In this document: in pieces, positions 31,800-39,318 of the stretch
Layout of the letters: the number at the start of each line of letters is the position of its first letter
How positions within the stretch are numbered: the first letter of the stretch is position 1
Sequence record: PZ452612.1
DNA: 64,000 bases
Direction: 5' to 3' (one strand)
Source: a phage
The notes under the pieces: generated by a model
Seen by the model: only the letters and a program-made list of their open reading frames with translations
Told to the model about the DNA's origin: nothing
Database searches by the model: none
Made by a program: the position numbers and the translations under genes

Positions 31800-31811
31800 A
31801 TAGGCCTCCTG

Positions 31812-32024
31812 TTAATTTTGGCCAGTATTTATTTTTCGCCTTTGGACGGCCTTAACATCTGTGAGGTATTTTTCCAGCTTGCGCTTGCGTGTATAATCAG
31901 CTTTAGAACCAGTTTGACGGATATCCTCGTTTAAATGAGAAATAGAATGTCCTAATTCTCTTCGGATTTCATCCAATTGGGTTACAGTAAGATTACGAAG
32001 TTGTCTTTCGTTTAATTGCTGCAT
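31812..32024 (-). CDS. Hypothetical basic protein (rI.1-like position)
   Basis: 70-aa ORF between tk and rI. Confidence 0.5.
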
Positions 32025-32051
32025 ATATACCTCTTGGTTAGATATTAGTAT

Positions 32052-32633
32052 TTATAACAACCCTGTCAAATCATTCCAATGCTTCCGGCATAATGACACG
32101 TATCTATCGGTATCACCAATTTCAATTTGACTGCCATCTGTAATTGGAAGTCCGTCTTCCGTGACTCTAGCTACCATTGTGGCCTTTTTACCGCAATGAC
32201 AGACACCTTTAAGTTCAACAAGCTTATCGGCAATAGCCATTAATGCTTGAGAACCTTCAAATAGATTACCTTTAAAATCTGTTCGTAGTCCATATGCCAT
32301 TACTGGCACATTGTATACGTCAACAATACGACTAAGTTGATACACCTTTTCAGTAGTTAAGAACTGAGCTTCGTCAACAAATACACAGTGAATATCCTTT
32401 TGTGCTGCAGCCCATTTATAGAATTCAAAGATATCCATGTCTTTTGTAATTATATTGGCATCCTGACGAATACCAATACGAGAGACTATTTCACCTTTTG
32501 AATCACGAGTATCAATAGCCGGTTTAAGAACTAATACACCCATGCCACGTTCTTTATAGTTATGTGCGGCAGTAAGTAATGAAGAAGACTTACCAGCGTT
32601 CATAGCGGCATATGTAAAAATTAAACTAGCCAT
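32052..32633 (-). CDS. tk: Thymidine kinase
   Basis: 193 aa; P-loop NAGKSS, zinc-ribbon cysteines, typical TK length. Confidence 0.95.
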   Translation of the reverse strand: MASLIFTYAAMNAGKSSSLLTAAHNYKERGMGVLVLKPAIDTRDSKGEIVSRIGIRQDANIITKDMDIFEFYKWAAAQKDIHCVFVDEAQFLTTEKVYQLSRIVDVYNVPVMAYGLRTDFKGNLFEGSQALMAIADKLVELKGVCHCGKKATMVARVTEDGLPITDGSQIEIGDTDRYVSLCRKHWNDLTGLL

Positions 32634-32642
32634 AAGAGTCCC

Positions 32643-32825
32643 TTATAGTGAATTCACGTAGTCAATGAGTTCTTGTTCTTTCCTGTCAAATGATTCCAAC
32701 AATGCTTGATATTCTTCATCTGTTAAAGGAGCATATTCATCGTACGCATTGGTGGCTGCTTGCTCATCCAATAGGTCATGGATAAGTTCGAATAGTTTAG
32801 CTTTCTCTTCTTTAGTTAATTTCAT
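32643..32825 (-). CDS. Hypothetical small acidic protein
   Basis: 60-aa ORF. Confidence 0.45.
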   Translation of the reverse strand: MKLTKEEKAKLFELIHDLLDEQAATNAYDEYAPLTDEEYQALLESFDRKEQELIDYVNSL

Positions 32826-33049
32826 TTAGGTTCACCTTCTTTAACGAAATCTGGGTAAGGGTAAAATCCTGAGTAAAACCCTTCACCTTTATGATTGCTA
32901 CAACCTTTGTTCGAACAGTAACACCAATAATCAAAATCACAAGCCATTTCGTCATTGCATAAAGCAAAAACTACAGGCCATTCGCATTTTTCGCATTTAG
33001 CACCTGTAAGAATTTTTGTTTGACTCATAACCATGTCACCTTTAAGCAA
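32822..33049 (-). CDS. Cys-rich small protein
   Basis: 75 aa with 9 Cys (CEKCEW...CNDEMACDFDYWCYCSNKGC). Confidence 0.5.
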   Translation of the reverse strand: MLKGDMVMSQTKILTGAKCEKCEWPVVFALCNDEMACDFDYWCYCSNKGCSNHKGEGFYSGFYPYPDFVKEGEPK

Positions 33050-33252
33050 TATTCTTCTACATGTTGTTTACGGCCTTTCTTATCAATAAAGGTATATTCA
33101 ACGAATGTTCCGATGTAGTCTTTATCTACATCATGTGGACTATTAATTGGACATTTGGTACGACAAATGCGTTCCCATTGACGAATAATTACTGCCTTAT
33201 TCTTTGGGTCATATGGATGTGGATAATGTATATTCATAATAACGGTTCCCAA
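33025..33252 (-). CDS. Hypothetical small protein
   Basis: 75-aa ORF. Confidence 0.45.
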   Translation of the reverse strand: MGTVIMNIHYPHPYDPKNKAVIIRQWERICRTKCPINSPHDVDKDYIGTFVEYTFIDKKGRKQHVEEYCLKVTWL

Positions 33253-33731
33253 TCAACAATCACAATTTCTAGTTTAGTGGAATACGTATCTAAAATCTCT
33301 TCGATGACATCCCAGTTTCCGCCACCGATACCTGCACCAATTCTTGGCATATAAATTACAGGCTTTGTTATCTTATTCTTTCCGAATTCATTTAATTCTA
33401 TTATACAATTCATTAAAGCAGAGTACTCAAAATTAGGTCCCGGCTCAAACTGCGTATAAAGATTAAAGCAATAAGCTTTATGGGTCTTAAAATATTTTTC
33501 ATAAACCGAATAAGTCCCGAGTTTAGACTCGTCTCCGAATTCGGTTTGAAGTTTATCGGCTTCCAGAATTTTTGGATAAGCCTTTGCTAATTGTCCTGCC
33601 ACACCGGCGCCCATTGTATGAAAACAATTACACCCATGAGCAATATTATTACCTTTAGAAAACAGGGCGACAATATCGCCCTTGATATAGTTTTTAATCA
33701 CTTGCTGCAAGTCCTCTAGTATAAGAGTCAA
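33234..33731 (-). CDS. Macrodomain protein (putative ADP-ribose binding / ADP-ribosyl hydrolase)
   Basis: 165 aa; GDI...NIAHGCNCFHTMGAGVAGQLAKAYP and PRIGAGIGGGNW resemble macrodomain motifs (cf. YmdB-like NAAN..GGGV and ISTGVYGYP). Confidence 0.6.
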   Translation of the reverse strand: MTLILEDLQQVIKNYIKGDIVALFSKGNNIAHGCNCFHTMGAGVAGQLAKAYPKILEADKLQTEFGDESKLGTYSVYEKYFKTHKAYCFNLYTQFEPGPNFEYSALMNCIIELNEFGKNKITKPVIYMPRIGAGIGGGNWDVIEEILDTYSTKLEIVIVDWEPLL

Positions 33732-34041
33732 CTAGACGGTCCACCATAGAATTGCATGCTGCCTTATCTTTAGGTTCCGCCACCGAGCATTCTAATATTT
33801 GCCATTTTTTATAGTATCTTTTAATTAAGGTAGACGCCTTGAACCTACTAGACGCCCCATCTTTTTCTCCGTCTTTATACGCGTATAACAATTTTTGTGA
33901 AAAATCTACTTTACACTCTTGACTTTTACCACAATAATCAGACGCCGTTCTGTTTGTATACTCCGTTACATCAGTATATGTAGTATTAGCAAGAGCGTTA
34001 AATGAAACCAAGCTAACTATTAAAGCCAACATTTTGGTCAT
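33694..34041 (-). CDS. Small secreted/periplasmic Cys-containing protein
   Basis: 115 aa; signal-like N-terminus MTKMLALIVSLVSFNALA; 4 Cys; ATGA-coupled to the upstream transglycosylase gene. Confidence 0.5.
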   Translation of the reverse strand: MTKMLALIVSLVSFNALANTTYTDVTEYTNRTASDYCGKSQECKVDFSQKLLYAYKDGEKDGASSRFKASTLIKRYYKKWQILECSVAEPKDKAACNSMVDRLVDSYTRGLAASD

Positions 34042-34580
34042 TCTTTTATTTCCAGTAGTTTATTTGATTTAAGGTAATTAGCCTTTTCTAGGACTTCAGA
34101 AGCATATTTACTTCCAGCACTTGTCTTCCATCCCGCATTATATGAGGATATGGCTTTTCTTATATCCCCGTTATGTATATTTAACCAATAAGAAAATTCG
34201 ATATAAGCCCATCTGGCTGAATTAGACCGCTTAGATAGCATTTTCTTAATTTGGGCATCAGTCATATTATAACCAAGCTGGTTAATTCTTGCCCTCATTG
34301 TTGGTAGATAGTTTTGGAACATTCCATACGCATGGTGACCTTTCTTATCTTTAAGATTAATACCGGCAGATGATTCTTGCCATAGTATTGCGGCCATTAT
34401 GTATCCAAGTCCTTTCTTATGCATATTTTCATGCGTTTTAAATTTTCCATCCTTAGAAAACTGTTCCCCAAACTGATAAGCATAATTCAAGTTATCGAGT
34501 TGGACATTACTAAAAGTATGCTCGGAGCTATGTGCTGATAACGAAAGAGCAAATAGACCAGCGAGTAGTGCTTTTCTCAT
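34038..34580 (-). CDS. Secreted lytic transglycosylase (SLT-domain)-like protein
   Basis: 180 aa; signal peptide MRKALLAGLFALSLSAHS; motifs LWQESS, GMFQ, SSYNAG resemble SLT family. Confidence 0.55.
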   Translation of the reverse strand: MRKALLAGLFALSLSAHSSEHTFSNVQLDNLNYAYQFGEQFSKDGKFKTHENMHKKGLGYIMAAILWQESSAGINLKDKKGHHAYGMFQNYLPTMRARINQLGYNMTDAQIKKMLSKRSNSARWAYIEFSYWLNIHNGDIRKAISSYNAGWKTSAGSKYASEVLEKANYLKSNKLLEIKE

Positions 34581-34588
34581 GTTTACCT

Positions 34589-35047
34589 CTAGATTTTAAT
34601 CACTGCTTTAGAAGCTTTTCCTGGTAGTCGTTTACTGTTAATAATAGCCATTCTGCATTGAAGAGTCTTCATTTTGAATGCTGGATTTTCGCGACAAACT
34701 GTAAGTCCTAACCAAAGATTTCCATCAGTTATTTCTAAACGGCCTGGGCGATATTCGACACCTTCGACAAAATCTTCATCAACATCTGGACGGGCTGGCA
34801 TTGATAAAAATTCTGCAACTTCTTTAACATGATTTTTTACTTTATGAAATAATTCAAAAACGTAATTCTCATCTATTTCTCTCTGGATGGCACGATCTAA
34901 GAGATGTTGAGAATACTTGATATGAAAGCCTGGTAGTCCAAGAGACTTTGCAGCATCTTTTATACTGGCATTTATTTTGCGGAACTCCGTTTCAAAGATT
35001 CGACGGAGTTTATTGCGGCGGATAAAAACGTCTGAATTGATAGTCAT
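34589..35047 (-). CDS. regB: Endoribonuclease RegB
   Basis: 152 aa; MTINSDVFIRRNKLRR...HIKYSQHLLDRAIQREID...RPGRLEITDGNLWLG matches T4 RegB as recalled. Confidence 0.85.
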   Translation of the reverse strand: MTINSDVFIRRNKLRRIFETEFRKINASIKDAAKSLGLPGFHIKYSQHLLDRAIQREIDENYVFELFHKVKNHVKEVAEFLSMPARPDVDEDFVEGVEYRPGRLEITDGNLWLGLTVCRENPAFKMKTLQCRMAIINSKRLPGKASKAVIKI

Positions 35048-35055
35048 TTTGATTT

Positions 35056-35104
35056 CTCCTCTAGTTGACAGGTCTATAGTAACACAACTAGAGGAGAAGT
35101 AAAC
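35056..35104 (-). promoter_or_regulatory. Early promoter (GTTTAC...TACTAT) inside a 12-bp inverted repeat whose 3' arm contains the regB SD
   Basis: Arms ctcctctagttg (35056-35067) and caactagaggag (35085-35096) are perfect reverse complements; gtaaac at 35099-35104. Confidence 0.5.
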
Positions 35105-35403
35105 TACTCTTTGAAAGGAATTAACTTTTTAACTGCTTTAGATACTTCGTCACGAACCTGGTGGAAGTTCTTGAGCTGTTCAAGGCGTTGTTCGTAATAC
35201 GCAATCTCATCTTCTTCAAGACAATCGTCAGCGTCTTCTTTCAGATATGCCTTGTACTCATTAAAGAGGGCCCATAGGCGGTTCTCAAAGTCATCAAGGC
35301 TTTGAATTTTCTTGTGCTTCGGAACAAGGCCAAAAGGATTGCTTTCAGTTATGCGTCGAGATGCTTCATAATGAGTTCCAAAGCCTGATAGGATTTGAGC
35401 CAT
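35104..35403 (-). CDS. Hypothetical protein
   Basis: Track ORF trimmed to internal ATG ([13 protein letters not shown]...) overlapping the upstream stop. Confidence 0.45.
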
Positions 35404-35648
35404 TAGTATTTTTCCTCTGGTTGAAATACCGCACGACAAGCCCACATACTAGCTTCCTTTAGGCGTTCTTTAGCACAGTTCAATTGGGACAAAGCTGTCA
35501 AAGCTTCAGGAGTATTCGCAGACAACGCTTCTTCCGCCAAGGCATCGAAAATAAGCCCTAATCGAACTTCTGCATCTTTAATAGCGTTCACTTTACCGAT
35601 TTTATCATCGGTATGCGGCTTGTAGCCTTTGATGTCTTCAATCGACAT
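35403..35648 (-). CDS. Hypothetical protein
   Basis: Track ORF 35403..35816 trimmed to internal ATG ([12 protein letters not shown]...) just past the upstream stop. Confidence 0.45.
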
Positions 35649-35862
35649 AAGGAATTTCCTCATCGGTGGCAAGGTCATATTCGACCAATTGGATAGGCTC
35701 ATTAATACCATATCCACGTACAGTGATATCGGTTGTCGGATATTTTCCAGTAATATCACCCATTCTAAATGCTTCAGTGAATGATTGCTCGCCTGAGCAA
35801 CTAAACCAGGCGGCAAAACATTTTAAAACATCTTCAGACCCTTCTATAATCAATTTAGCCAT
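35638..35862 (-). CDS. Hypothetical small acidic protein
   Basis: 74-aa ORF. Confidence 0.45.
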   Translation of the reverse strand: MAKLIIEGSEDVLKCFAAWFSCSGEQSFTEAFRMGDITGKYPTTDITVRGYGINEPIQLVEYDLATDEEIPYVD

Positions 35863-36224
35863 TATAGACTCTCAGTAAAGGTACGAGCGATAACGTCGCG
35901 CTGCTGTTCCGGGGTCAGAGAGTTAAAGCGAACTGCATAACCGGATACACGGATGGTCAGCTGTGGATATTTTTCCGGATGCTTAACTGCATCTTCCAGA
36001 GTTTCGCGACGCAGAACGTTAACGTTCAGATGTTGACCACCTTCAATTTTAACTTTAGGTTGATGTTCAATTTCAATTTCACGGGCATTCAAACCGTAGA
36101 AAATTTCCGGGTCTACAATAGCGTCTTCTTTAAAAGTCTTAGAGACGATAATCCGGGCTTGAGTACCGTCTTCAAAATAAATAGTGCCTTTATGTGCACC
36201 TTCAAGAATTTGATATGCTTTCAT
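35862..36224 (-). CDS. Autonomous glycyl radical cofactor GrcA/YfiD-like protein
   Basis: 120 aa; C-terminal ~64 aa ([61 protein letters not shown]) carries the RVSGY glycyl-radical motif and matches E. coli GrcA as recalled; this part is visibly GC-rich. Confidence 0.8.
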
Positions 36225-36230
36225 ATAACC

Positions 36231-36539
36231 TCAATTAGAAAATAAATTTATCCAAGTTTTTTCTTTAATCAAAAATGGGTCAGAACTAAACGCCATTAAA
36301 CTTTGAGTGATTAATCCCTTAAATGGCCCATCAATAAATTCCATTTTGAAATGCGGAATACTAGTCATCAACCGTGCGTTAGGAGCAGTACAAAGAACCT
36401 GCTGCCCTGCGAACGGACCTTTAGTCAAACGGTATCGTTTAGGTTTAAAATGGTAAATCTCGTAATTTTCTACAAGAGCCCTTTTATTGCATACTGGGCT
36501 GTTATAACAATATTCAAAAACTTCAATAGTGGTCATCAT
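36231..36539 (-). CDS. Hypothetical protein
   Basis: 102-aa ORF. Confidence 0.45.
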   Translation of the reverse strand: MMTTIEVFEYCYNSPVCNKRALVENYEIYHFKPKRYRLTKGPFAGQQVLCTAPNARLMTSIPHFKMEFIDGPFKGLITQSLMAFSSDPFLIKEKTWINLFSN

Positions 36540-37075
36540 TGCATTCCAATCACAAAAAATTGAGGACGAGCATTACCGCCGATGCAATATTTGCTTTTGC
36601 AGCAGTACTGTACTGTTTTAATATGGACATTGTAAATCTTATCCATATCAGGAGCTTTAATAGGCTCGTCAATTATATACAGAATACGAGAAAGCGTTAA
36701 TCCACGGAATTTAGAACCTTCATTGCCAATAAAACTACGAACAGAATCAGTAAATAAACGGAATCGAATATCATCGCTAGAATAACGAGAAAATTCTTTT
36801 TCAATGTTACCAGCAGAAATTTTAGCATAAGCTGAAGTATTAGAAAGAACAATAACTGTTCCGCCATCATACAGCCAATTAGCAGCAAAGTTAGTCACAG
36901 CAATTGATTTACCGGATTGTCTGCCACCGTCTAAACGAAGTGTACAGTACTGCTTGAGTACGTCTTCAAACGGTGGGATATAACCGTTCTTACAAATTTC
37001 TTCTACTCTAGCATCAGAATGGTGTGTAAAAGCATTCATCAGGGATAGATAAGGTCCAGTTAAAAATGTTCTCAT
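36536..37075 (-). CDS. Hypothetical protein
   Basis: 179-aa ORF. Confidence 0.5.
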   Translation of the reverse strand: MRTFLTGPYLSLMNAFTHHSDARVEEICKNGYIPPFEDVLKQYCTLRLDGGRQSGKSIAVTNFAANWLYDGGTVIVLSNTSAYAKISAGNIEKEFSRYSSDDIRFRLFTDSVRSFIGNEGSKFRGLTLSRILYIIDEPIKAPDMDKIYNVHIKTVQYCCKSKYCIGGNARPQFFVIGMQ

Positions 37076-38058: not shown

Positions 38059-38340
38059 CTATTTTTCTGAAGCGCCTGAAATATATTTTTCAAGACGTTG
38101 TTTCATCAGCGAGCCGTTCTTAGCGATTTCTTCCGGTTTATCGCACATACGCAACAAGGCTTCAAGCTTAACGATATCACTGGTGCGCTCAAATTTGCGA
38201 GTATCTATCTTACTGGCAAGTTCAGAAATACGTGCTAATAGACTTTCAGCTTCAACCAAAGCTGCACCTAGCTTAGTTGCAAATGTGTCAGTAGCTTCGT
38301 TAAGAATAGATTCTGATAAAAATTCACTATATGTTTTCAT
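38059..38340 (-). CDS. Internal-protein-like protein, ipIII position
   Basis: 93 aa from internal ATG; [10 protein letters not shown] leader; ATGA overlap with the e stop. Confidence 0.55.
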
Positions 38341-38825
38341 ATATACGCTTTCCAAGTTCCTGTTTTAAATGTTGAGATTACGCGTTTCGCTCGATTAGGT
38401 GTCTGACGGTACCATTTAGATTGGGCTAGATTTACTGCCGCTTCATCCCAACGTTTCTGTTGAAGCATACGAAGAGAATTAGTAAAACCAGCGACGCCTG
38501 CTACACCCATTTGGAAGACCATATTGACCAATGCACATCGACGAACCGCATCTAAAGAATCATATACCGGTTTAAGTTTAGCATTACCCAAGATTCCGCG
38601 AACGGCTTTATCAACGTCTTCATTAAATAGCTTTTCAGCCTCATCAAGGGTAATTGTACCGTTGCATTTACGTCCGATCATTCTGTCAAGTTCAGCTTTA
38701 GCTACGGCTAAAGACGGGTTCTTTGTTACTAAATGGCCTATGCCAATCGTCCAAAAGCCTTCAGTGTCTTTGTATAAAGTCAGTCTAAGACCTTCGTCAT
38801 TACGAAGCATTTCAAATATATTCAT
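38337..38825 (-). CDS. e: Endolysin (T4 lysozyme, gene e)
   Basis: 162 aa from internal ATG; [32 protein letters not shown] with catalytic E/D/T context as in T4 lysozyme. Confidence 0.95.
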
Positions 38826-38828
38826 AAT

Positions 38829-38857
38829 ACCTCCCACGTTTATAGGAGGTATTTATT
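38829..38857 (-). promoter_or_regulatory. SD-sequestering hairpin upstream of e (ACCTCC-10 nt-GGAGGT) with adjacent late-promoter-like AATAAATA
   Basis: 3' arm GGAGGT is the SD; mirrors the known T4 e arrangement. The AATAAATA (minus 38857-38850) deviates from TATAAATA at position 1. Confidence 0.45.
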
Positions 38858-38859
38858 AC

Positions 38860-39318
38860 TTATAGGATGGTAGTGAGCACCTTATATAATGATTTACCCA
38901 TTACATATTCCCATTGAGAAGGTTTAATTAAAGCGAATGCATCAAATTCAGGAATCTGTCGTCCGTCTGGGAATGTATGATAGGAATTACAAACACTGTT
39001 TCTGAATTGCTCGTGCTCTACAGGGATGGTATATAGGAACAGATGAATATTCTTATTGTCTGAGTAATGATGTTCACCTAGGTCTTTCAGGAAGGCAGGG
39101 TCATATTGTGTAAACCCAGTTTCTTCTTCGCATTCACGAATAGCGGCTTCAATAGGAGATTCGCCAGGTTCGACACGGCCTTTAGGAATATCCCACCGAT
39201 GAGTTAATGCACCTTTAGGACGAGAACCAGTTACACGCCCCATGAATAACTCTTTATCTTCGGTAAGGAAAATAATACCGGCTGATAGCTCTTTCACTTT
39301 ATTTTTCTTACTCATCAT
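38860..39318 (-). CDS. nudE: Nudix hydrolase NudE
   Basis: 152 aa; Nudix box GRVEPGESPIEAAIRECEEETGF. Confidence 0.85.
   Translation of the reverse strand: MMSKKNKVKELSAGIIFLTEDKELFMGRVTGSRPKGALTHRWDIPKGRVEPGESPIEAAIRECEEETGFTQYDPAFLKDLGEHHYSDNKNIHLFLYTIPVEHEQFRNSVCNSYHTFPDGRQIPEFDAFALIKPSQWEYVMGKSLYKVLTTIL

What the first reader, a model, noticed from the sequence alone, without database searches (positions are those of the whole stretch)
33234..33731. Macrodomain protein in the tk-regB accessory region: candidate ADP-ribosylation eraser
Macrodomains bind or hydrolyse ADP-ribose adducts. A phage copy could counter host ADP-ribosylating defences such as DarT-type DNA ADP-ribosylation, or modulate phage-imposed ADP-ribosylation. 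Not a gene I associate with T4 itself.
Basis: inference. Interest (0 to 1): 0.6.

Follow-up and report, generated by a model that had tools for sequence, protein, structure and literature searches.

The report
Phage macrodomain Tk.4/AdfM, anti-DarTG2 factor
This is the ordinary T-even phage gene tk.4, a small macrodomain enzyme; its T4 copy was recently shown to protect the phage from the bacterial DarTG2 defence, which blocks phage DNA by attaching ADP-ribose.

Summary
The ORF is real, but its start is misplaced. The true CDS is 33234..33701 (-), 155 aa, with a GTG start. The TTG at 33731 is only the mechanical ORF limit and lies inside vs.

The window is identical to E. coli O157 typing phage 3 (Mosigvirus), where the gene is already annotated 'macro domain protein'. 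It is the syntenic orthologue of T4 tk.4 (85% identity), so T4 does carry it. GenBank has long labelled it 'A1pp phosphatase motif'.

The protein passes Pfam Macro. It models at pLDDT 95.9 as a TARG1/DarG/SCO6735-class macrodomain.

A 2025 preprint (HIDEN-SEQ) showed that T4 Δtk.4 becomes sensitive to DarTG2, and renamed the gene adfM. The DarT hypothesis is therefore supported and already known.

One detail is added here. The catalytic lysine of DarG (K80) and TARG1 (K84) is an invariant glutamine (Q84, 120/120 homologues). S. coelicolor SCO6735 has the same glutamine, is proven to cleave thymidine-linked ADP-ribose from DNA, and loses activity on Q85A. PhiKZ gp104, also named AdfM, is a separate lysine-type lineage.

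Hydrolysis by the T-even protein has not been demonstrated biochemically. Interest is low.

The parts
33234..33701 (-). tk.4 / adfM coding sequence: 155 aa, GTG start, single macrodomain
   Evidence: ORF list. GenBank CDS of the identical record KP869101. 85% identity over 155/155 residues to T4 Tk.4. Pfam Macro above threshold. AF2 pLDDT 95.9.
33712..33716 (-). Shine-Dalgarno GAGGA, 10 nt upstream of the GTG start, lying inside the 3' end of vs
   Evidence: Read directly from the sequence. T4 has the same GAGGA 11 nt before its ATG.
33702..33731 (-). Upstream extension of the mechanical ORF (TTG at 33731). Not part of the gene; it encodes the C-terminus of Vs in another frame.
   Evidence: vs ORF is 33694..34041. 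Homologues align only from residue 11 of the long ORF.
33597..33638 (-). Codons 22-35, HGCNCFHTMGAGVA: first ADP-ribose-binding loop. Contains invariant H22, N25 and G33.
   Evidence: Conservation over 120 homologues. Aligns to SCO6735 H24/N27 and DarG N22. PhiKZ AdfM N23A has reduced activity (PMC13309987).
33450..33452 (-). Codon 84, CAG = Gln. Occupies the position of the catalytic Lys of DarG (K80) and TARG1 (K84) and equals SCO6735 Gln85.
   Evidence: HMM and hhalign alignments. Q in 120/120 homologues. SCO6735 Q85A is inactive (PMC9411070).
33312..33347 (-). Codons 119-130, PRIGAGIGGGNW: second (diphosphate-binding) glycine-rich loop. Gly126 stands where TARG1 has catalytic Asp125.
33664..33682 (-). 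8-bp hairpin followed by a U-run, inside codons 7-13 of the gene. Significance unknown.
   Evidence: Terminator-like scan. Fold -13.8 kcal/mol, z -2.3. Nucleotide-identical in T4 and EP01, absent in Klebsiella phage EI.

Best explanation
The gene is the Mosigvirus orthologue of T4 tk.4 (adfM). It encodes a stand-alone, 155-residue macrodomain of the ALC1/TARG1-like class, lying in the tk-regB gene block (timing of expression was not examined here).

Proposed mechanism: the host's DarTG2 system is triggered, and DarT2 attaches ADP-ribose to N3 of thymidine in single-stranded TNTC motifs of replicating phage DNA. The macrodomain binds the ADP-ribose through its two glycine-rich loops and hydrolyses the ribose-thymine bond. 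This restores replicable DNA, so the protein acts as an 'orphan antitoxin'.

Chemistry: the catalytic lysine of DarG and TARG1 is an invariant glutamine here. The reaction is therefore most likely the SCO6735 type, in which Gln84 (with His22 and Asn25) positions the distal ribose and an activated water. The lysine-dependent chemistry of TARG1 and DarG is not available.

Basis of each step:
- Shown here: orthology, fold, and active-site make-up.
- Shown elsewhere for T4: the gene is required for resistance to DarTG2.
- Inferred: that protection is by hydrolysis, that the substrate is thymidine-ADPr on DNA, and that the Mosigvirus copy behaves like the T4 copy.
For: - Orthology: 85% identity and full-length colinearity with T4 Tk.4, with identical synteny.
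- Domain and fold: Pfam Macro above threshold. AF2 model pLDDT 95.9. Best structural matches are TARG1, Poa1p, DarG (Taq, Mtb, Thermosipho DarTG), BT1257 and SCO6735.
- Profile against PDB sequences: BT1257 1e-17, TARG1 5e-17, SCO6735 3e-15, Mtb DarG 1.5e-13.
- Defence and annotation libraries: the only hit in both NCBIfam and PADLOC is DarG, and only over its macrodomain part.
- Active site: Q84 aligns with DarG K80, TARG1 K84 and SCO6735 Q85, and is invariant in 120/120 homologues. H22 and N25 correspond to SCO6735 H24 and N27.
- Precedent for a Gln-type enzyme: SCO6735 cleaves thymidine-linked ADPr-DNA, Q85A abolishes activity, and it protects against DarT (PMC9411070).
- Genetics in T4: tk.4 was the sole hit of a T4 transposon screen on DarTG2, and a clean deletion is sensitised (10.1101/2025.11.20.689424).
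- Independent expectation: T2 and T4 lacking adfA and adfN remain DarTG2-resistant, which predicted a further factor (PMC11825919).
Against: - No biochemical assay of any T-even Tk.4 was found. The preprint itself says only that hydrolysis 'seems likely'.
- The catalytic Lys of DarG, whose K80A mutant is inactive, is absent. TARG1's Asp125 is Gly/Ala here.
- ALC1, a non-catalytic ADP-ribose reader of the same class, also has Gln at this position.
- The protein is acidic (pI 5.6). It lacks SCO6735's longer, lysine-bearing mobile loop and SCO6735 K34, both implicated in DNA binding. However, PhiKZ gp104 is also acidic (pI 5.05) and is active on DNA.
- The phenotype is known for T4, not for this Mosigvirus.
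Confidence: 0.75

Rival explanations
1. Stoichiometric inhibitor or reader rather than enzyme. The macrodomain would protect by binding DarT2 directly, or by binding ADP-ribosylated DNA, without hydrolysing the adduct.
For: Catalytically dead SCO6735, DarG and TARG1 all still inhibit DarT in vitro by 'interaction-inhibition', and SCO6735 does so most strongly (PMC9411070). The catalytic Lys is missing here. ALC1's non-catalytic macrodomain carries the same Gln.
Against: H22, N25 and Q84 are invariant across 120 homologues down to about 40% identity, and they match the residues SCO6735 needs for catalysis. The protein lacks the C-terminal DarT-binding domain of DarG: it has 155 aa, and the NCBIfam and PADLOC DarG models are matched only over positions 4-146 of 338 and 4-145 of 329. 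Merely binding a replication-blocking adduct would not restore replication.
Confidence: 0.1
2. Small-molecule ADP-ribose metabolite processing, which is the historical annotation. The protein would act as an ADP-ribose-1''-phosphate phosphatase or O-acetyl-ADP-ribose deacetylase, for example clearing by-products of RNA repair or host signalling.
For: T4 tk.4 is annotated 'phosphatase; A1pp phosphatase motif', and PHROG 335 is labelled 'phosphatase'. Yeast Poa1p, an Appr1p phosphatase, is among the best sequence and structure matches and shares the H-x-C-N-C...G-x-G motif. JGI names many homologues 'O-acetyl-ADP-ribose deacetylase'.
Against: These labels are transferred by homology and were not tested. 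This activity does not explain why tk.4 becomes conditionally essential specifically on DarTG2 hosts. T4's own RNA repair (Pnk/Rnl1) does not generate Appr1p (own knowledge). Such side activities are common in macrodomains and need not be the selected function.
Confidence: 0.07
3. Eraser of a different ADP-ribose mark. Candidates are uracil-ADPr or phosphate-linked ADPr on RNA, Asp/Glu-linked ADPr on protein, or tuning of the phage's own Alt/ModA/ModB modifications. DarT2 reversal would then be one activity among several.
For: SCO6735 and TARG1 also hydrolyse protein Glu-ADPr and uracil-ADPr on RNA (PMC9411070; PMC13036486). T-even phages carry their own ADP-ribosyltransferases (own knowledge).
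Against: Alt, ModA and ModB modify arginine. TARG1-class macrodomains are not known to reverse that linkage (own knowledge). The only phenotype on record is specific to DarTG2, and tk.4 is dispensable on plain K-12.
Confidence: 0.08

Closest known systems
Phage T4 Tk.4 = AdfM (anti-DarT factor Macrodomain; NP_049723; bioRxiv 10.1101/2025.11.20.689424)
   Same: Orthologue. 131/155 identical residues with no gaps. Same neighbours (tk.3 downstream, vs upstream, overlapping reading frames). Same SD position. Same H22/N25/Q84 and glycine loops.
   Different: GTG instead of ATG start. Gly127 (the family consensus) where T4 has Lys. Host phage is a Mosigvirus, and the anti-DarTG2 phenotype has not been tested for this copy.
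Streptomyces coelicolor SCO6735 (PDB 5E3B) and its Bacteroides homologue BT1257 (2FG1/2AFC)
   Same: Stand-alone ALC1/TARG1-class macrodomain with Gln in place of the catalytic Lys and a conserved His...Asn in loop 1. SCO6735 cleaves thymidine-ADPr DNA and protects against DarT. This is the best mechanistic model.
   Different: Only 20-29% identity. The mobile loop after the Gln is shorter. There is no equivalent of SCO6735 K34 or K89. The protein is acidic (pI 5.6) rather than basic (pI 9.85). It is a phage counter-defence gene rather than a bacterial DNA-damage-inducible gene.
DarG antitoxin macrodomain (T. aquaticus 5M31/5M3E, M. tuberculosis 5M3I)
   Same: Same fold and class, the same target system (DarT2 thymidine ADP-ribosylation), and the conserved Asn of loop 1.
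   Different: DarG has catalytic Lys80 where this protein has Gln. DarG has a C-terminal DarT-binding domain and sits next to darT. NCBIfam DarG equivalog score is 31.9 bits against a cutoff of 250.
PhiKZ gp104, also named AdfM (Cell Rep 2026, PMC13309987)
   Same: A phage-encoded stand-alone macrodomain that counters DarTG2. De-ADP-ribosylation of DNA is shown in vitro for gp104.
   Different: A separate lineage. About 20% identity to this protein but 32-36% to DarG, and it retains the DarG 'FPTK' catalytic lysine. It is imported into the phage nucleus. The two proteins share only a name.
Human TARG1/OARD1 (4J5R)
   Same: Top Foldseek hit (E 3.7e-10). Same loops. Also reverses thymidine-ADPr DNA.
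   Different: TARG1 uses a Lys84/Asp125 dyad. Here these positions are Gln84 and Gly126.
T4 AdfN (gene 30.3, NADAR; PMC11825919)
   Same: The same strategy: an orphan antitoxin-like hydrolase in T-even phages that erases DarT marks.
   Different: Unrelated fold. Specific for guanine-ADPr (DarTG1) and inactive against DarTG2.

Membership tests
Macrodomain (Pfam PF01661) | Sequence score above the curated gathering threshold | tested here: met
   28.1 bits against a cutoff of 22, covering positions 2-117 of the 118-position model.
Macrodomain (Pfam PF01661) | Three-layer alpha/beta/alpha macro fold | tested here: met
   AF2 pLDDT 95.9, pTM 0.91. 140 PDB matches at E<=1e-3; every top-ranked match listed is a macrodomain or a designed protein built on one.
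Macrodomain (Pfam PF01661) | Two glycine-rich ADP-ribose-binding loops | tested here: met
   M30-G-A-G33-V-A35 and P119-R-I-G-A-G-I-G-G-G128 are conserved in the family and align to the TARG1, DarG and SCO6735 loops. Binding itself was not tested.
ALC1/TARG1-like macrodomain class | Closest sequence and structure relatives are TARG1, DarG, SCO6735, Poa1p and ALC1, rather than MacroD/YmdB or PARG types | tested here: met
   Profile-PDB ranking and Foldseek ranking. Viral MacroD-type domains (coronavirus Mac1) score only about 5e-4.
T-even Tk.4/AdfM orthologous group | High full-length identity and conserved gene order between tk.3 and vs | tested here: met
   85% identity over 155 aa with no gaps. 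Synteny in T4, T6, RB69-like and this phage.
T-even Tk.4/AdfM orthologous group | Required for phage growth on DarTG2-expressing hosts | not testable with these tools
   Shown only for T4 Δtk.4.
DarG antitoxin (NCBIfam NF048014 equivalog) | Catalytic lysine (TaqDarG K80) after the beta-strand 'FPTK' | tested here: not met
   Gln84 at this column, in 120/120 homologues.
DarG antitoxin (NCBIfam NF048014 equivalog) | Two-domain architecture with a C-terminal DarT-binding domain, and a score above the equivalog cutoff | tested here: not met
   155 aa, macrodomain only. 31.9 bits against a cutoff of 250, matching model positions 4-146 of 338. PADLOC DarG matched over 4-145 of 329.
DarG antitoxin (NCBIfam NF048014 equivalog) | Adjacent darT toxin gene | tested here: not met
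   The neighbours are tk.3 (DUF7202) and vs.
SCO6735-type (Gln-type) thymidine-ADPr DNA hydrolase | Gln at the catalytic-Lys position, plus His and Asn in loop 1 (SCO6735 Q85, H24, N27) | tested here: met
   Q84, H22 and N25 aligned by hmmsearch and hhalign and invariant.
SCO6735-type (Gln-type) thymidine-ADPr DNA hydrolase | Extended, lysine-bearing mobile loop and an electropositive DNA-binding channel (K34, K89) | tested here: not met
   The loop is 5 residues shorter in the hhalign alignment. Ala32 stands at the K34 position. pI is 5.6 against 9.85.
SCO6735-type (Gln-type) thymidine-ADPr DNA hydrolase | Hydrolysis of thymidine-linked ADP-ribose on ssDNA | not testable with these tools
   No assay of a T-even Tk.4 was found in the literature searched.
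TARG1 | Lys84/Asp125 catalytic dyad | tested here: not met
   Gln84 and Gly126 at the aligned columns.

The most novel reading that the evidence does not exclude
T-even Tk.4/AdfM would be a lineage of glutamine-type, lysine-independent DNA de-ADP-ribosylases that phages acquired independently of the lysine-type DarG-like AdfM of chimalliviruses. If so, the two 'AdfM' proteins are convergent co-options with different chemistry. The T-even enzyme would use the water-activating SCO6735 mechanism on an acidic, short-loop scaffold. It might then have a broader substrate range, for example uracil-ADPr on RNA or other DarT variants.
Probability: 0.35. Interest if true: 0.4.

Novelty: already known. 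Interest (0 to 1): 0.2.

Why it matters
The finding adds little on its own. The gene is annotated as a macrodomain in the identical GenBank record, it has been flagged in T4 for many years, and its anti-DarTG2 role in T4 was published as a preprint in November 2025.

Three points from this analysis are useful:
2. The T-even protein should be compared with SCO6735 (Gln-type), not with DarG (Lys-type). This matters when designing catalytic-dead controls: Q84A, N25A or H22A should be used, not a 'K80A-like' mutant.
3. Two unrelated phage macrodomain lineages now carry the same name, AdfM.

Homologues occur in about 2,800 of 50,697 phage records. The family is therefore a very widespread counter-defence candidate.

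Tried and rejected
- The sigma-70 promoter scan of 31800-36300 found 13 sites against 14.3 expected, so it is uninformative. T4 early, middle and late promoters are not modelled by the tool.
- A small MAFFT alignment of nine reference macrodomains shifted the SCO6735/BT1257 strand by several residues relative to Tk.4. I discarded that region and relied on the hmmsearch and hhalign alignments, which agree with each other and with the published SCO6735 Q85 = TARG1 K84 = DarG K80 equivalence.
- I rejected the long TTG-initiated ORF (33731) as the gene start.
MacroD-type domains score far worse than the TARG1 class.
- I considered whether the gene is a true DarG. It fails three defining features.
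- The literature search found no assay of Tk.4 activity and no mention of T4 in the PhiKZ AdfM paper.
- I did not use the large representative-protein search or the genome and metagenome scans. The answer did not depend on them.

Full report
**What is there**

The minus strand carries an ORF ending at 33234.

Bases 32000-35100 of the window are 100% identical to E. coli O157 typing phage 3 (KP869101 / NC_041863; Straboviridae, Tevenvirinae, Mosigvirus). There the CDS is 33234..33701 in window coordinates, annotated 'macro domain protein' (GenBank) or 'phosphatase' (RefSeq).

The shorter CDS is correct, for four reasons:
- The GTG at 33701 is colinear with the ATG of T4 tk.4.
- Both phages have a GAGGA 10-11 nt upstream.
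- Both products are 155 aa.
- All T-even homologues align only from residue 11 of the long ORF.

The start overlaps the end of vs (33694..34041) by 8 nt. The stop overlaps the start of the tk.3 homologue by 4 nt. This packing is typical of T-even gene clusters.

**Is it a macrodomain?**

Yes.
- Pfam Macro scores 28.1 bits against a gathering threshold of 22 and covers nearly the whole model.
- PHROG 335 matches at E 7e-67.
- A 60-sequence alignment (A1) gave an AlphaFold2 model with mean pLDDT 95.9 and pTM 0.91.
- Foldseek against the PDB returned, at probability 1.00: human TARG1, yeast Poa1p, the DarG macrodomains of T. aquaticus, M. tuberculosis and Thermosipho, Bacteroides BT1257, and S. 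coelicolor SCO6735.
- The family profile against PDB sequences gives the same ranking: BT1257 1e-17, TARG1 5e-17, SCO6735 3e-15, Mtb DarG 1.5e-13. Coronavirus Mac1 scores only about 5e-4.

The protein therefore belongs to the ALC1/TARG1-like class, not the MacroD/YmdB class.

**Is it absent from T4?**

No. T4 (NC_000866) has tk.4 (NP_049723; 'phosphatase; contains A1pp phosphatase motif') in the same order: tk, tk.1, tk.2, tk.3, tk.4, vs, vs.1, regB. The two proteins are 85% identical with no gaps. T6 and RB69-like phages have it too. tblastn finds relatives in 2,801 of 50,697 phage records.

**What is known about its function**

- A T4 strain lacking both known anti-DarT factors (AdfA and the NADAR AdfN) stays fully resistant to DarTG2. 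This led Laub and colleagues to predict a further factor (PMC11825919).
- The HIDEN-SEQ preprint (10.1101/2025.11.20.689424, November 2025) then infected a DarTG2 host with a T4 transposon library and obtained tk.4 as the single significant hit.
- The same preprint showed that a clean tk.4 deletion is sensitised, and renamed the gene adfM. It states only that enzymatic removal of ADP-ribose from DNA 'seems likely'.
- I found no biochemical assay of a T-even Tk.4.

**Active site: the one point that goes beyond the literature I could read**

I recovered the true PDB sequences of DarG, TARG1, BT1257 and SCO6735 from the tool's alignments. I then mapped the catalytic positions.

| Position in this protein | Motif here | Aligned residue elsewhere |
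|---|---|---|
| Gln84 | NLYTQ | TARG1 Lys84 (LITK) |
| Gln84 | NLYTQ | DarG Lys80 (FPTK) |
| Gln84 | NLYTQ | SCO6735 Gln85 (NMIGQ) |
| His22, Asn25 | loop 1 | SCO6735 His24, Asn27 |
| Gly126 (Ala in most relatives) | loop 2 | TARG1 Asp125 |

Gln84 is present in 120 of 120 homologues, and His22 and Asn25 are also essentially invariant.

For SCO6735, the authors showed cleavage of thymidine-linked ADP-ribose from DNA, protection from DarT, and complete loss of activity in Q85A and Q85E. They proposed a water-initiated mechanism distinct from TARG1 and DarG (PMC9411070). So the missing lysine does not argue against hydrolase activity. It points to SCO6735-type chemistry.

There are differences from SCO6735:
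- The loop after the Gln is shorter.
- There is no K34 or K89 equivalent.
- The pI is acidic: 5.6 against 9.85.

The acidic PhiKZ gp104 (pI 5.05) is nevertheless active on ADP-ribosylated DNA.

**Two different 'AdfM' proteins**

The Cell Reports 2026 paper names PhiKZ gp104 AdfM and shows in vitro de-ADP-ribosylation. Translating the sequence given there shows that gp104 keeps the DarG 'FPTK' lysine. It is 32-36% identical to DarG but only about 20% identical to the T-even protein. That paper does not mention T4. The two are separate lineages of the same class that share a name.

**Not a DarG**

- The NCBIfam DarG equivalog scores 31.9 bits against a cutoff of 250.
- PADLOC's DarG model is matched only over its macrodomain part.
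- There is no C-terminal DarT-binding domain and no neighbouring darT.

'Orphan antitoxin-like macrodomain' is the accurate description.

**Rival explanations**

1. Stoichiometric inhibition of DarT2, or mere binding of the adduct. This is possible because dead SCO6735, DarG and TARG1 still inhibit DarT in vitro, and because ALC1's reader macrodomain also has Gln at this position. The invariance of the catalytic-site residues argues against it.
2. The old 'Appr1p phosphatase' label. It rests on homology to Poa1p-type domains and does not explain the DarTG2-specific phenotype.
3. Other ADP-ribose marks on RNA or protein. These are plausible side activities, because SCO6735 and TARG1 have them.

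**Verdict**

Novelty is 'already known'. Interest is low (0.2). The residual novel angle is the Gln-type chemistry and the independent origin relative to PhiKZ AdfM. It is modest and needs biochemistry.

Noticed in passing
window 33664..33682 (-), inside codons 7-13 of tk.4: An 8-bp GC-rich hairpin (AGGGCGAT-ATT-GTCGCCCT) followed by a U-run. It folds at -13.8 kcal/mol with z about -2.3. It is nucleotide-for-nucleotide identical in T4 and in phage EP01, whose protein is only 58% identical, but it is absent in Klebsiella phage EI. It could be an attenuator or RNA-processing site between vs and tk.4, or simply conserved KGDIVAL codons.
   Followed up: partly
window 33694..34041 (-) vs, and 34038..34580 (-) vs.1: Both products begin with signal-peptide-like hydrophobic N-termini (MTKMLALIVSLVSFNALA; MRKALLAGLFALSLSAHS). 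That is unexpected for Vs, which is annotated as a modifier of cytoplasmic valyl-tRNA synthetase. vs.1 has a sub-threshold SLT lytic-transglycosylase hit (18.8 bits against 21.3). The HIDEN-SEQ preprint reports that vs is conditionally important in minimal medium.
   Followed up: no
window 34038..34580, 36231..36539 and 36536..37075 (as annotated in KP869101): The GenBank record spreads the label 'Endoribonuclease RegB' onto vs.1 and two further ORFs. Only 34589..35047 (-) matches the RegB family (PF10715, E 2e-69). This is an annotation error in the public record.
   Followed up: partly
window 38860..39318 (-): A Nudix hydrolase ORF (PF00293, E 2.5e-16) lies about 5 kb from tk.4, next to the lysozyme gene (38337..38837). 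This is the position of T4 e.1/nudE. From my own knowledge, that enzyme hydrolyses ADP-ribose among other substrates, so it could dispose of the ADP-ribose released by the macrodomain. This was not tested.
   Followed up: no
literature: PMC13309987 versus bioRxiv 10.1101/2025.11.20.689424: Name clash. 'AdfM' was coined independently for PhiKZ gp104 (Lys-type, DarG-like) and for T4 Tk.4 (Gln-type, SCO6735-like). The two proteins are only about 20% identical.
   Followed up: yes
window 35862..36224 (-): A 120-aa ORF is annotated as the autonomous glycyl radical cofactor GrcA. This is a stand-alone glycyl-radical 'spare part' domain in the accessory region downstream of regB.
   Followed up: no
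window 32822..33049 (-) and 33025..33237 (-): The small genes between tk and tk.4 now have Pfam families. One is a phage zinc-binding domain (PF23895, E 5e-29). The other is DUF7202 (PF23832, E 2e-38), which is the tk.3 homologue. The function of both is unknown.
   Followed up: no
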